Source: Eledone cirrhosa (Eukaryota). Taken from it: 64,000 bases of DNA. A model generated the notes under the pieces. The model searched no databases. It had not been told where the DNA came from and saw only the letters and a program-made list of their open reading frames with translations. A program made the position numbers and the translations under genes. How positions within the stretch are numbered: the first letter of the stretch is position 1; the number at the start of each line of letters is the position of its first letter. Of the stretch, positions 2,679 to 63,660 are shown piece by piece. Where the stretch lies: NCBI GenBank assembly GCA_964016885.1, contig OZ024746.1, positions 27,900,001 through 27,964,000 on the forward strand, in the 5' to 3' direction.

Positions 2679-3257
2679 ATTGTTATACTTTGGGAGGGTC
2701 ATGTTGCCAATAAGAAACACACGCACCAGTTGCTTTCACTTCAATTTATTATAATAAATTTATAAATTTAGGAATTTATAAATTTCCGGTTGGTTGGTTG
2801 GTTCCACAACCAGATGGTTGTTTATATATTGTCAAAGTTCTTGCGTCACACATTCTGTGACCTCTTCATTGAGTGGGGATTCTTTTCTTTGTTTTTGTGC
2901 CTCTCCTTTGTTCTGTCCTACGCCAATTTGTTTCTGACACACACAGAAACAAGATGGCGTAGAACAGAACAAAGGAGAGGCACAAAAACAAAGAAAAGAA
3001 TCCCCACTCAATGAAGAGGTCACAGAATGTGTGACGAAAGAACTTTGACAATATATAAACAACCATCTGGTTGTGGAACCAACCAACCAACTGGAAATTT
3101 ATAAATTCCTAAATTTATAAATTTATTATAATAAATTGAAGTGAAAGCAACTGGTGCGTGTGTTTCTTATTGGCAACATGACCCTCCCAAAGTATAACAA
3201 TATCGGTTTCAACACACGTTTTCAGATAAAGAATCTTGCTAAACAAATTCAGAAACG
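2679..3257 (+). mobile_element. Family A foldback Penelope-like 3' end (pLTR) in (TA)n, copy 1
   Basis: About 258-bp inverted arms (2679-2936 / 2944-3203), unduplicated tail 3204-3257, (TA)n on both sides; hammerhead-like core at 3007-3049 (C3 mutated, ATGAAGA); homologous to 36669-37220 and 61533-63095. Confidence 0.8.
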
Positions 3258-3744
3258 ATATATATATATAATAGTCTTCTAACCGAGACTATGTAAAGGG
3301 ACATATTAATTCATACATTGAGTACAAGTTGTATATATCATGTACACAATATACACAACTTCTGAAAATCGATTCAAGATATTGATAATTAGTTTTCAGT
3401 TTACAGGCAAATATGTAAAACTTGGCTTGGTATAAATTTATATATACTTGTACGCAGTCACGATTACCTTTGTACTGTATATACACAGATATAACTATAT
3501 AAGCTCTCTATGTTAGTGTAGATATATTCATGCGTGTATTTGTGTATTTGTGTATTTGTGTATAATACGTATTTGGAAAAACATATTTTTCACAGAATTC
3601 GATGAATTTCTTTCATTGAGATTTTCTGAAGAAACGCTAAAATTTTGTAATTTCTTGAAAAGTTATTCATATTTATTAGTTATTTCTACATGTATCTACT
3701 CTCAGTAATGTTTTATATCTTCTATAATTCATCTGTATTATGAT

Positions 3745-3844
3745 ATATAGAAGTCTTTCCTATATTAAATGTGTTACATTTTCACTCTACTAATGTATTG
3801 AGTACCTTATTCACTGTGGTGACCCCCGATTTAACTCAGGATCT
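3745..3844 (+). mobile_element. 3' fragment of family P element
   Basis: TAGAAG...CTATATT...ATTGAGTACCTTA...CTGTGGTGACCCCCGATTTAAC is similar to 37870-37955 and 60378-60450; ends in (CA)n. Confidence 0.6.
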
Positions 3845-3985
3845 ACACACACACACACACACACACACACACACACACACACACACACACACACACACAC
3901 ACACACACACACACACGCGCGCACACACACACACACACACACACACACACACACACACACACACACACATATATATATATATATA

Positions 3986-4065
3986 TAAGGTGTCCCCCCA
4001 AAATATATACACACTTCAACAGTATTCTAATAAATATGTGTATTCATTTTTAGAGGGATACCCTG
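3986..4065. mobile_element. Tc1/mariner-type MITE (about 80 bp)
   Basis: Imperfect TIRs TAAGGTGTCCC...AAAATATATACAC / GTGTATTCATTTTT...GGGATACCCTG flanked by TA. Confidence 0.6.
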
Positions 4066-59847: not shown

Positions 59848-61532
59848 AATAAAATTACTACCACTTCCCTCTACAGATATAGTAGACCAAATAATACCAG
59901 TCCAATACAATTTCATGTTTTAACTATTACTCACACCACTACTTGCACGTAAAAATCATGCCTTCTTCGCTTTGAATTTCTGATCATGTGATGTGAATTA
60001 AATATGGAATTAAATTAAACGCCTTGGTATCTGCTCCGGGACTCTGCATTCTGAGGTCAAATCCCGCCGAGGCCAACTTTGATGTTCCGTCCTTGAAATA
60101 AAGTAGCAGTGAAGAACTCGTGTTGATTTAGCACCCCCCACACACACACACACTCACCAACAACAAATTATTGGTCTTGTACCCTAAATAGAAATTATTA
60201 TTTTACAGCGTGTGTTTCTCATAAATTAGAAATGTTTTCTATAGAACCAGTACAAAACACATTGTTTTAGGTACGAGGTAAGTAAATGAAATCTACAGGA
60301 CTGCAACTGTTTCATTCTAAAGAAATCCCCGGGAAAGCCCTTGATGACCCCTTTTGAATGAAACAATTCTAGTCCTGTAGAAGCCATTTCTATATTGAAC
60401 TAATTTATTGAGTAAGTTGCTTACTGTGGTTACCCCCGATTGAACGTGGAGCACACACACAAACACACACACACACACACACACACATATGTGTGTGTAT
60501 GTGTGTGTTTGTGTGTATTCCTTGATTGTAGATAATTTGAATTGATTTTGCTTATGGACAAAGTATTCAGCAAGGGTTATGTCCTACATTTAAACAACCA
60601 TCGGAAGATGAGATCCTAGCAACCCCTTATGGCACATTCGACAATATGTGTATATATATATATATATATATATATATACACATATGTATGTATAATGGTG
60701 TTTTAAACAAATATATAAGGTGTGTGTATATATATATATATATATATATATATATATATATATATATATATATATATATATATATACGTAGCTATGCTTA
60801 TCTTGTACAGTAATGTAGAAAATTAGAGTATGAGCAAATCAAGAAAAAAACAGCACACATTATTATCGCAGATAACCTCTTGTCTTTCGTTTTAGTTTTC
60901 CGAGAAAACCAATTACGATTTCCTATGAGCGACTTAATGATATTTGGCAATATACACATTTACATACATAACTATATATATATATATATATATATATATA
61001 TATATATATATATATATATATGTATGTATATATATATATATATATATATATATATATATATATATATATATATATATATATATATATATACATATATATA
61101 CACATACATATGGAAACACATGTTTCGCTTGCTTATCTCTATTAACGACCTACTACTTAACATAAACACCTCTATAACCTCTTAACTATATCTATAATGT
61201 ACCAAAAAAATATATAAAAAAGATGATTATTGCATTATATGTAGGTTAGTTTGGCTGGTCATTGAGCAAATAAGTCAAACATGTGTACGATGGTATGGGG
61301 AGGGGCGAAGGGGAAAACGAGGATGGGAGAAAATAATTGTGCTTTTAAATCAGAGAACCGAATATGGCTGAACTATATATAGGTATATTTATATCTGTGT
61401 GTATATATGTTTATATAGGTGTATATAGATGTTGATATATATATATATATGTATACATATATATGCATATATATGTTGATGTGTGTTTATATACATATAT
61501 ATGTTTATATATATATATATATATATATGTAT

Positions 61533-63095
61533 TTCCTTTCTGAATTTGTTTAACAAGATTCTTTATCTGAAAACGTGTGTTGAAACCGATACTTTTATAC
61601 TTTGGGAGGGTCATGTTGCCAATAAGAAACACACGCACCAAATGCTTTTACTCCAATTTATTATAAATAAAATTTATAAATTTATAAATTTCCGGTTGGT
61701 TGGTTCCACAACCGGACGGTTGTTCATATAGTGTCAAAGTTCTTTCGTCACACATTCTGTGACCTCATCAGTGACTGGGGATTCTTTTCTTTGTTTTGTG
61801 CCTCTCCTTTGTTCTGTCCTACGCCATCTTGTTTTTGTGTGTGTTGTGTGCTTAGTTTGCGCATGTGTTACATCCGGGTGTCTGTGTGTGTTTTTATTTG
61901 TTTATTTATTTGTTTATTTACACGTTACTGGTTGGTTGTTTTGTCCTTAATCGTAACTTGTGATGTTGCTATTCCATTCATGTTTTCTATTTAATTTTGG
62001 TTGGAGGTCACAGAATGTGTGACGAAAGAACTTTGACAATATATGAACAACCGTCCGATTGTGGAACCAACCAACCGGAAATTTATAAATTTATAAATTT
62101 AATTTATAATAAACTAGCAGTAAAGCCCGGCGTTGCTCGGGGTCGCTCAGTAGCTGTGTTAAAGTTACAATGTTAAGTTTCTTTCTTGGCTTAAAAACTG
62201 TAGTGTCTACTGTGCAGACTTGCATGTGGTGTTTTTGATTAATATTCCCTCAACCAACAATATGCCTTATGAAGTTAAGAAAACATAACGATAACCCGAA
62301 TGTTATAACAAAAGAGGATGCTGGGGATAGAAACTGCACTGGTTATTTATTAACAAAGATCGAAAATGTAAACACTGCAACGCAGAGAAAAACATTAGCG
62401 TAACCAAATTATCAGTTATGTCTGTCTGCACGCCTATATCACCTCTCTGCACGACTGTCTGTCTGCACGCCTATATCACCTCTCTGCACGACTATCTGTC
62501 TGCACGCCTATATCACCTCTCTGCACGACTGTCTGTCTGCACGCCTATATCACCTCTCTGCACGACTATCTGTCTGCACGCGTATATCACCTCTCTGCAC
62601 GACTGTCTGTCTGCACGCCTAACGACGAAATATTTGCTTGTTTTACGTAGTCTTTAAATAGACTTGTTTTCAAGTAAAAATATTGTTTTAAAATGCTTTT
62701 AAATGGAAATGAAGCAAAACGGAAGCTTCGTGTATTGTGTTAATGTCATTTTAAACACTGAGAAAGCCAGCGTAATTTTTTACGTAAGACGCTCAATGTA
62801 AACAGAACAAAGGGAAATAACTGATAACTTACGCTAAAAAATCGATACATTATATTCGATTTCGTCAGATAGGGCGGGTCAATTTGAAATATTTTTTTCC
62901 GATGTCTTCGCTAGGGCTCAATGTACAAGTATAGCAATTTCGGTGCAATTCCGTGAGAGATTCTAAGAGGAGATGTGTGCCAAAAATCGATAGACAGACA
63001 GACAACCACAGTTTTATATATATATATATTGGAGTGAAAGCAACTGGTGCGTGTGTTTCTTATTGGCAACATGACCCTCCCAAAGTATAACAATA
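61533..63095 (-). mobile_element. Family A element, copy 3 (longest; inverted arm split by a Helitron)
   Basis: Tail 61533-61590, body to 62003, inverted arm 62005-62113 resuming at 63029-63095; hammerhead GTCA-CTGATGA-G-GTCAC..GTGAC-GAAA-G-AA-C-TT-TGAC at 61775-61733; ORF end QPKLNRKHEWNSNITSYD* at 62003-61947. Confidence 0.8.
62114..63028 (-). mobile_element. Non-autonomous Helitron with an internal 37-bp minisatellite
   Basis: Minus-strand 3' end is hairpin CCCGAGCAACGCCGGG, 8 nt, then CTAG|T; (CTGT)n near the 5' end; no TSD; minisatellite at 62419-62620 (about 5.5 copies). Confidence 0.75.
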
Positions 63096-63409
63096 TATAT
63101 ATGTACATATACATATATATATTTTCTTTTCTCTCTCTCTCTCTATATATATATATATGTGTGTATATATATATATATATATATATATATATAGAGAGAG
63201 AGAGAGAGAGAGAGAGAGAGAGAGAGAGAGAAATATATATATATATATATAAACATATATATGTATATAAACACACATCAACATATATATGCATATATAT
63301 AAATATGTATATATATATATATATATATATATATATATATATATATATATATATATATATATATATATATATATATATATATATATATATATATATATAT
63401 ATATATATA

Positions 63410-63660
63410 CGGTGGTAGAAATTCGTAGATGAAAGATCAACGAAATCAGTGCGTGATTTGATGGATGAGATCTTATTTAGTGTAAACAAATTTTCATACG
63501 CTTAAAATGTATGTGCTACCAATGGTTTCGGGGTCAGTCCAGTCATGGCCACCACTGTATAATGGTCCTCCTCCATTATACAGTGGTATCCATGACTAGA
63601 CGCCAATACCATTGGTATCACATACATTTTAAGTGTATGAATCTTTGGCTACACTAAAAT
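63410..63660 (-). mobile_element. Foldback element in (TA)n with the 3' half of a hammerhead (family T)
   Basis: About 88-bp arms around 63570, tail on the left; minus strand GAAA-CC-ATT-GG-TA-GCAC at 63529-63513. Confidence 0.65.

What the first reader, a model, noticed from the sequence alone, without database searches (positions are those of the whole stretch)
2679..63660. Swarm of unrelated (TA)n-targeted foldback elements carrying hammerhead ribozymes
Seen: more than a dozen sequence-unrelated families (e.g. 2679, 9280, 9981, 13686, 14487, 14819, 18458, 26352, 27043, 37277, 37770, 46374, 63410) sit inside (TA)n tracts and share one layout, an inverted copy of the 3' region, the forward copy, then an unduplicated tail of roughly 35-140 nt. 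Complete CUGANGA/GAAA type I hammerhead topologies occur at 10103, 10344, 14163, 26857, 36970, 46580 and 61775(-). Partial or decayed ones occur at 9338, 9640, 11545(-), 29648(-), 37834, 39201(-), 46420 and 63529(-). Established: Penelope-like elements carry minimal hammerheads in their pseudo-LTRs, often insert as partial tandems or with an inverted pLTR, and some clades prefer microsatellites. Inference: this genome hosts a very diverse microsatellite-targeted PLE/retrozyme system, and it explains most of the long palindromes here that would otherwise be mislabelled as MITEs.
Basis: partly seen in the sequence, partly recalled or inferred. Interest (0 to 1): 0.85.

Follow-up and report, generated by a model that had tools for sequence, protein, structure and literature searches.

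The report
Penelope-like retroelement stubs packing TA microsatellites
The lopsided palindromes in this animal genome's TA repeats are cut-down ends of many Penelope-like jumping genes, likely made when both cut DNA strands start copying the element's RNA at two fixed points; this is a known kind, except for one tRNA-bearing family with no detectable ribozyme that likely hitch-hikes on the same machinery.

Summary
The layout is real: 15 of 26 local inverted repeats abut a (TA)n tract (null mean 0.9). Nine families link to Penelope-like (PLE) RT/GIY-YIG coding sequence elsewhere in the genome. Seven carry Hydra-clade marks; two are Neptune/Nematis-type. Three families are non-coding tandem units: two with a hammerhead (retrozyme-like), one (37279-37684) with a tRNA fold and no hammerhead found.

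The inverted arm's outer end is fixed per family, giving tails of about 35-134 nt, against 30-40 in print. The centres vary and either arm can be the longer, which rules out MITEs and argues against simple fold-back. End sites share on average 2.7 nt with (TA)n, against 1.0 by chance.

Six of seven 'complete' hammerheads hold; 46580 has a deleted stem II. Cleavage is untested.

The layout, (TA)n targeting, PLE hammerheads and one octopus Hydra family are published (Craig 2021; Frangieh 2024). This scan has noted similar stubs, and one tRNA-bearing unit, in other genomes. Verdict: new members of a known kind, with one possibly new non-autonomous variant.

The parts
2681..3258 (+). Family A stub: inverted arm 2681-2936, forward arm plus tail 2937-3258; 3' end of a Neptune/Nematis-type PLE (CX4CxxC linker, CCHH GIY-YIG); core mutated here
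9283..9457 (+). Family B stub (Hydra-type), cut inside hammerhead loop II
9590..9760 (+). Decayed hammerhead-bearing repeat (core 9640); family not linked to an ORF
9981..10171 (-). Family C stub (Hydra-type); complete minimal hammerhead at 10103-10141 in the inverted arm (reads on +)
10266..10537 (-). Local duplicates of the family C arms; second hammerhead, core 10348
11422..11613 (-). Family R 3' end, no inverted arm; longer copies run into a GIY-YIG of Neptune/Nematis type
13062..13109 (-). Family B tail fragment
13687..14417 (+). Family D: non-coding tandem unit (553-555 nt in most copies) with a short inverted arm and a hammerhead with long stem II (core 14168); retrozyme-like
14486..14762 (-). 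Family E stub (Hydra-type), tail 89 nt; very young (39 of 40 top copies 100% identical over 180 nt)
14819..15014 (-). Family F stub (Hydra-type), tail about 100 nt
18458..18709 (-). Family G stub (Hydra-type), tail 127 or 134 nt in most copies; family hammerhead has a U3-A8 core
26356..27034 (+). Family H: non-coding tandem unit (about 405-440 nt) with inverted arm; hammerhead core 26862
27042..27278 (+). Family I stub, diverged copy
29559..29650 (-). 5'-truncated hammerhead-like 3' end (S); not linked to an ORF
36671..37221 (+). Family A stub; hammerhead core 36974
37279..37684 (+). Family J: non-coding tandem unit (262-272 nt) with inverted arm and a tail of about 35 nt; no hammerhead found
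37475..37546 (+). tRNA-like fold inside family J (Rfam RF00005, 35.1 bits here, 42.4 in other copies; gathering 29)
37771..37957 (+). Family K stub (Hydra-type); both arms end at the 5' edge of the hammerhead (core 37834)
38671..38974 (+). Family I stub (Hydra-type by one copy that runs on into an ORF start); CAGAAGA variant, not a confirmed hammerhead
39094..39205 (-). Decayed hammerhead-like 3' end (T); not linked to an ORF
39422..39612 (-). Family B stub
43748..43930 (-). Family O stub, same layout; not searched genome-wide
46374..46539 (+). Family L stub, older; core 46420 with GAAA mutated; no ORF link
46552..46700 (+). Family M 3' end; core 46586, 5' strand of stem II deleted in this copy; no ORF link
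61534..62113 (-). Family A stub; complete hammerhead, core 61771
63410..63658 (-). Family N stub, older; only the GAAA half of a hammerhead recognisable; no ORF link

Best explanation
The palindromes are 5'-truncated insertions of many endonuclease-bearing Penelope-like retroelements and their non-coding hitch-hikers, likely made by two separate priming events at one (TA)n site. Steps: (1) shown: the stubs are 3' ends (pseudo-LTRs) of RT plus GIY-YIG elements, or tandem non-coding units, and sit in (TA)n. (2) Inferred, from the in vitro work on Anolis Poseidon: the protein cuts both strands of the tract. (3) Shown as two fixed DNA ends per family, inferred as RT starts: one strand primes at the distal site X and the other at site Y, 35-134 nt upstream, so the sequence between them appears once as the tail. 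(4) Shown as a statistical overlap, inferred as annealing: the target 3' ends pair with 1-6 nt of UA-rich RNA at most sites. (5) Shown: the two arms stop independently and meet head to head with few bases gained or lost; joining by repair is inferred. (6) Inferred: in K and B many arms stop at one Initiator-like base, likely the RNA 5' end, giving near-perfect short palindromes. The hammerhead likely cuts tandem precursors into units (needed most by D and H) but does not set the DNA ends.
For: ORF links: A 10 of 30 loci, C 10 of 30, G 4 of 30 in sense plus 4 in the inverted arm; B 8 of 20; E 3 of 4 and F 2 of 3 fetched stretches; R 8 of 20; I 1 of 30, and K in three copies whose inverted arm carries ORF. 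Pfam: GIY-YIG E 6.6e-5 and RVT_1 E 7e-4 (below its cut-off) for A. 76 of 150 loci (A, C, E, F, G) have an adjacent inverted arm: inverted longer in 28, forward longer in 21, within 10 nt in 27; modal outer ends A 54, C 64, E 89, F 99-103, G 127/134 nt from X. Overlap with (TA)n at 19 end sites: mean 2.7 nt against 1.0, p about 0.0005. K: 34 of 52 incidentally sampled arms end 0-11 nt upstream of the core; B: 49 of 128 end 41-50 nt downstream of the core start, in loop II. Frangieh 2024 (PMC11167929): both strands cut and extended, tail = stretch between two RT starts, ribozyme cleavage not needed.
Against: No biochemistry or RNA data. Loci are the top-scoring 20-30 of hundreds to thousands of candidates, so young and long copies are over-sampled. 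Frangieh report RT starts without homology to the target, and here F_X and J_X overlap by only 0-1 nt. The 19 sites are not fully independent, and four X templates rest on one copy each. 74 of 150 loci show no adjacent inverted arm. Pfam recognised none of the Hydra-type proteins tested (1 tested). Pile-ups at the hammerhead are family-specific: weak or absent in A and E. No empty insertion site was seen, so pre-existing (TA)n is inferred. 16 of 31 tallied long B copies carry a C3/A8 mismatch predicted to be inactive.
Confidence: 0.82

Rival explanations
1. Same elements, but the inverted arm arises by self-priming: one cDNA folds back on itself and is copied toward the target (Arkhipova 2013 inferred self-priming from junction palindromes).
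For: 27 of 76 arm pairs end within 10 nt of each other; junctions often contain short palindromes; passage in PMC3846280.
Against: The inverted arm reaches further 5' than the forward arm in 28 of 76 cases, in some by more than 1 kb and into the ORF, which fold-back on the first cDNA cannot give. Equal arms are also expected if both stop at one RNA end.
Confidence: 0.08
2. The (TA)n tracts are written or lengthened by the telomerase-like RT slipping on the UA at its start sites, and are not only pre-existing targets.
For: Start sites are UA-rich; tracts abut both outer ends and many are long; PLE RTs are sister to telomerase (PMC8557442).
Against: Ends with 0-1 nt overlap (F_X, J_X) carry tracts just as regularly; different families stack in one tract; (TA)n preference is published for Hydra elements.
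Confidence: 0.07
3. MITEs or fold-back DNA transposons with TA target preference.
For: Short palindromes in TA context; K and B copies are of similar length.
Against: One-sided tail, 25-29 distinct 5' ends per 30 loci, continuity into RT/GIY-YIG ORFs, sense-strand hammerheads.
Confidence: 0.01
4. For family J only: an ordinary tRNA SINE moved by a LINE, with tandems and inversions made later by local DNA rearrangement.
For: tRNA fold in 25 of 30 loci; no hammerhead found; no partner PLE identified by sequence.
Against: The tRNA lies inside the unit, with about 50 nt upstream that continue the 3' end; no poly(A); 49 of 68 distal ends fall into (TA)n; inverted arms mostly stop 29-40 nt short of X; 5' ends do not gather at the tRNA start in a 3'-only search. 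The weight given is for J alone.
Confidence: 0.12

Closest known systems
Hydra clade of C-terminal EN+ Penelope-like elements (Craig et al. 2021, PMC8557442), including Hydra-1_Obim from Octopus bimaculoides
   Same: RW[KR] and DKT motifs, divergent RT4, CxCX5C linker, CxxC and CxH around the conserved E and N, (TA)n insertion, 3' hammerhead often with a U-U mismatch at 10.1/11.1, optional inverted 5'-truncated copy (Penelope-13_HM).
   Different: One octopus family is listed there; 14 Hydra-like EN clusters (70% identity) occur in 1.43 Mb of held loci here. Tails run to 134 nt against 30-40. E and F have 1.4-1.9-kb 3' UTRs, so they exceed the usual 3 kb. B and G have U3-A8 cores.
Neptune/Nematis PLEs
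   Same: Family A: C-terminal GIY-YIG with CX4CxxC linker and CCHH; hammerhead in the 3' UTR with an extra base at the 5' side of stem II.
   Different: A has a long insert between RT3 and RT4 and a Nematis-like short linker spacing; its clade is unresolved.
Poseidon of Anolis carolinensis in vitro (Frangieh et al. 2024, PMC11167929)
   Same: Two internal RT starts bound the tail; both strands extended; hammerhead dispensable for insertion.
   Different: Starts there lack homology to the target; here most overlap (TA)n by 2-6 nt and lie further apart.
Animal non-LTR retrozymes (Cervera and de la Pena 2020, PMC7229834; Li et al. 2026 preprint 10.64898/2026.07.22.740005)
   Same: D and H: non-coding head-to-tail units, each with a type I hammerhead.
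   Different: D (555 nt) exceeds the 150-450 nt range. Here they show the PLE insertion marks (inverted arm, fixed tail, TA ends); word searches of those two papers found no such passage. J has a tRNA fold and no hammerhead found.
Schistosoma Sm-alpha type tRNA-related tandem repeats (recalled, from no call)
   Same: tRNA-related sequence in a tandem retroposon.
   Different: Sm-alpha carries a hammerhead; J has none found.

Membership tests
EN+ Penelope-like elements | RT plus C-terminal GIY-YIG in one ORF | tested here: met
   E: one 678-aa stretch from the N-terminal motifs through RT into GIY-YIG; A, F, G as frameshifted copies; for B, C, I, K, R only EN or the N-terminal part was seen
EN+ Penelope-like elements | pseudo-LTR: the 3' end recurs in front of the ORF start in partial tandems | tested here: met
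   E 3, F 4, G 1, I 1 of 30 loci and B 1 of 20 run from the 3' end into the ORF N-terminus
EN+ Penelope-like elements | 5' truncation, adjacent inverted copy, one-sided tail | tested here: met
   76 of 150 loci; fixed outer ends
EN+ Penelope-like elements | type I hammerhead in the pseudo-LTR | tested here: met
   Scan: A 23, H 20, D 29, G 16 of 30 loci; C 1, E 0, F 0 of 30 passed that scan and were read by eye; not confirmed for I and N
Hydra clade | RWK motif and DKT in place of DKG | tested here: met
   RWR and DKT in E and F, DKT in G; R in place of K noted
Hydra clade | CxCX5C linker; no CCHH; CxxC and CxH flanking E and N | tested here: met
   B, C, E, F, G; definition
Hydra clade | divergent RT4(B) | tested here: met
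   E and G match the Hydra rows of Fig. S1 by eye
Hydra clade | placement in the clade on an RT tree with reference elements | not testable with these tools
   reference proteins are not held as usable sequences
Neptune or Nematis (family A) | CX2-5CxxC linker and CCHH | tested here: met
Neptune or Nematis (family A) | RT signature deciding between the two | tested here: inconclusive
   EN spacing Nematis-like, RT unlike the rows shown
non-LTR retrozyme (D, H) | non-coding tandem unit with one type I hammerhead | tested here: met
   D in tandem in 29 of 30 loci, H in 4 of 30; no PLE ORF upstream in sense
non-LTR retrozyme (D, H) | self-cleavage and circular RNA in vivo | not testable with these tools
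   needs RNA data or a bench assay
non-LTR retrozyme (J) | hammerhead in each unit | tested here: not met
   no exact core on either strand, one-mismatch words without fitting stems; Rfam gives tRNA only
tRNA SINE (J) | tRNA-derived head at the element's 5' end and a LINE-type 3' tail | tested here: not met
   tRNA is internal to a permuted tandem unit; 5' ends scatter; no poly(A)
MITE | terminal inverted repeats at both ends and fixed length | tested here: not met
   one-sided tail and variable centres

The most novel reading that the evidence does not exclude
Family J is a ribozyme-free parasite of Penelope-like elements: a roughly 270-nt tandem or circular RNA whose tRNA fold takes the hammerhead's place, as promoter or as an RNase P-type cut site, and which is inserted by the PLE two-start reaction. 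In these microsatellite-targeting clades both RT starts are set by telomerase-like annealing of the (TA)n primer to UA in the RNA.
Probability: 0.3. Interest if true: 0.65.

Novelty: new member of a known kind. Interest (0 to 1): 0.4.

Why it matters
For annotation: about a tenth of this window is PLE stub (7.2 kb, of which about 0.55 kb is stray SINE matches), and such palindromes are easily filed as MITEs or microRNA hairpins (one search gives dozens of sub-threshold miRNA matches). For mechanism: many young families in one genome give a natural test of the two-start model, each with known X and Y sites, and suggest that primer-RNA annealing guides microsatellite targeting. For retrozymes: a 2020 review (PMC7761336) says their repeats show no motif that identifies the mobilising element; D and H carry the PLE insertion marks directly. 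If J moves by the same route, PLEs would have tRNA-derived parasites, as LINEs have SINEs.

Tried and rejected
- Rfam found no hammerhead in the window or in a J tandem; its models may miss minimal ones, since it also missed those found by descriptor.
- Genome search with family B's window copy returned nothing (the tool skips very common words); B was followed through incidental copies instead.
- One genome search was aimed at the wrong flank of L220 and is ignored.
- An apparent pile-up of J 5' ends at the tRNA start vanished with a 3'-only query: ascertainment.
- A pile-up of 5' ends at the hammerhead cleavage site was looked for and not found: 0 of 52 in K, about 4 of 128 in B, 1 of 15 in C, 0 in A and E (cleavage positions counted by hand). 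A's short-end clusters probably reflect alignment breaks in an A/T run.
- I first labelled C, E, F, G 'Nematis' from memory; the published motifs show Hydra.
- No partner PLE for J, D or H was found by 3'-end similarity; best D-G z 4.7 in low-complexity sequence, E-J z 2.3.
- A pattern meant to tally family I's core matched nothing, so I's variant rests.
- Homologue search with E gave 35 relatives at 30-41% identity, one named, uninformatively.
- Paper searches for a tRNA-derived non-autonomous PLE showed no title or abstract describing one; most subscription journals and Repbase/Dfam entries were not searchable.
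Full report
SETTING. The window is G000:C6:27,900,001-27,964,000 of a 3.0-Gb animal genome, 35% GC, with 5.8% of bases in (TA)>=4 tracts. 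It is probably an octopus; that rests on my recall of the abundant SINE and the genome size and was not tested.

OBSERVATION. Self-BLAST of the microsatellite-masked window found the stated palindromes. Of 26 local inverted repeats listed by hand from that output, 15 have an outer end within 8 nt of a TA tract, against a mean of 0.86 and a maximum of 5 in 5000 random placements. CTGANGA occurs 35 times against about 20 in shuffles. A strict descriptor gave three hammerheads (shuffled mean 0.05), or none if stem II had to be 3 bp. A looser one gave two more real sites and one chance-like site (shuffled mean 0.53). 36974 fits by eye. 46586 has lost half of stem II relative to its family. Rfam listed no hammerhead.

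WHAT THE FAMILIES ARE. I searched the genome with 13 window families (one, B, returned nothing) and with longer copies of B and K, and took the top 20-30 loci each. Family A (2681, 36671, 61534) runs 5' into a GIY-YIG with CX4CxxC and CCHH and an RT in 10 of 30 loci. C links to a different EN in 10 of 30 and G in 4 of 30, plus 4 where the inverted arm carries it. Longer fetches gave RT plus EN for E (3 of 4 stretches), F (2 of 3) and G. B links in 8 of 20 long copies, R in 8 of 20. I (1 of 30) and K (L153, L403) continue past the 3' end into an ORF start, the pseudo-LTR arrangement, as do E, F, G and B; K's L407 carries EN in the inverted position, contiguity not checked. L, M and N gave no link (0 of 20 each). 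O, S, T and the 9640 repeat were not searched genome-wide.

CLADE. B, C, E, F and G show the Hydra marks of Craig et al. 2021: RWR for RWK, DKT, divergent RT4, CxCX5C linker, CxxC and CxH in place of CCHH; I and K are assigned by their RWR-bearing N-termini. That paper's supplement lists Hydra-1_Obim from Octopus bimaculoides with (TA)n preference, and Hydra hammerheads with the U-U mismatch seen here in C, G and K. A and R are Neptune/Nematis-type, unresolved. 64 EN fragments in 427 held loci fall into 16 clusters at 70% identity, 14 of them Hydra-like. The loci are a biased sample, and non-overlapping fragments could split a family.

NON-CODING UNITS. D repeats head to tail at 553-555 nt in most copies (29 of 30 loci have two to four 3' anchors), H at about 405-440 nt (4 of 30), J at 262-272 nt (8 of 30). 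None has PLE ORF upstream in sense. D and H carry a hammerhead (29 and 20 of 30). J carries a tRNA-like fold (ARAGORN 25 of 30 loci; Rfam 42.4 bits) and no hammerhead found on either strand. All three show inverted arms and ends in (TA)n; D's arms often stop 114 nt short of X and J's mostly 29-40, while H's ends are more variable.

MECHANISM. In A, C, E, F and G, 76 of 150 loci have an adjacent inverted arm. Its outer end is fixed per family (54, 64, 89, 99-103, 127/134 nt from the 3' end) while inner ends scatter; the inverted arm is longer in 28 cases, the forward arm in 21, and they match within 10 nt in 27. That fits two separately primed cDNAs and excludes fold-back as the only route. Frangieh et al. 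2024 showed for Anolis Poseidon that both strands are cut and extended, that the tail lies between two RT starts, and that ribozyme cleavage is not needed. Here the ends overlap the TA repeat by 2.7 nt on average over 19 sites (307 copies whose junction matched the template), against 1.0 for nearby positions (p about 0.0005). F_X and J_X overlap by only 0-1 nt, and the sites are not fully independent. Among incidentally sampled arms, 34 of 52 in K end 0-11 nt upstream of the hammerhead core and 49 of 128 in B end inside loop II. K's upper limit is sharp at 6 nt, and B's falls near the A of TTAGTC. A and E show little such pile-up, and none appears at the cleavage site.

HAMMERHEAD VARIANTS. 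G has a U3-A8 core, as reported for Schistosoma PLEs. In B, about 10 of 31 long copies have U3-A8 and 16 have a C3/A8 mismatch predicted to be inactive (top eight classes shown). I has CAGAAGA in 62 arms without clear stems I and III, and is not counted as a hammerhead.

WHAT IS KNOWN. Partial tandems, the inverted 5'-truncated copy, the 30-40 bp tail, (TA)n targeting and pseudo-LTR hammerheads are all in print. Retrozymes as PLE dependants are proposed on phylogenetic grounds. Not found in my searches: tails of 90-134 nt, TA overlap at both starts, a multi-family Hydra expansion in an octopus, and a tRNA-bearing ribozyme-free unit. Repbase and Dfam could not be checked and may hold these families. 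Earlier notes of this scan describe similar stubs in at least five other genomes and one tRNA-bearing unit; they are unchecked AI notes, not independent support.

PAPERS SEEN. PMC8557442: abstract, passages, section 11, supplement parts 2 and 54 and a word search. PMC11167929: parts 1-2 of 4, all results. PMC4209133: part 1 of 4. 10.64898/2026.07.22.740005: part 1 of 5 and passages; its supplements are closed and could list tails or invertebrate cases. PMC7229834, PMC7761336, PMC3846280, PMC13282606: passages only.

VERDICT. Real and correctly interpreted; new members of a known kind. The added value is the in-genome support for two-start priming and family J. Interest 0.40.

Noticed in passing
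window 57859-59919 (-): 686-aa open frame with many 12-aa acidic repeats; probably a large host exon.
   Followed up: no
window 1-644: Tandem satellite with a 127-bp unit, about five copies at 95-97% identity.
   Followed up: no
window 8584-8772, 15540-15726, 16093-16280, 17940-18126, 29896-30079, 33628-33817, 35750-35940, 41982-42164, 50423-50609 and others: Abundant roughly 190-nt SINE-like family; two opposed copies at 15540 and 16093 mimic an inverted repeat.
   Followed up: no
window 11828-12395 and 49850-50394: Two copies (84% identical) of a roughly 550-nt loosely palindromic element whose palindrome does not abut a TA tract; a candidate true MITE or DNA transposon.
   Followed up: no
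window 10536-10724: Perfect 36-nt inverted repeat with (TA)n tracts at its centre, the opposite geometry to the PLE stubs; no other copy in held loci.
   Followed up: partly
window 31408-31773, 34015-34527, 47977-48700: Fragments that read like LINE RT or endonuclease sequence of other clades (recalled motifs).
   Followed up: no
tails of families B, C, E, K, L: A shared GAGT(A/G)C word 42-69 nt from the 3' end, inside the tail; a possible protein-binding site.
   Followed up: partly
L031:4225-5559 (family A RT): Long insert between RT3 and RT4, of the size of an insertion-in-fingers domain, in a C-terminal EN element; Craig 2021 tie that feature mainly to Naiad/Chlamys.
   Followed up: no
L060 (1-1140, -): A further PLE-like RT with a PMG-type motif and YVDD (Poseidon-like by recall) beside a family H copy.
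   Followed up: no
window 36512-39760: Families A, J, K, I, T and B are stacked end to end within one run of TA tracts.
   Followed up: partly
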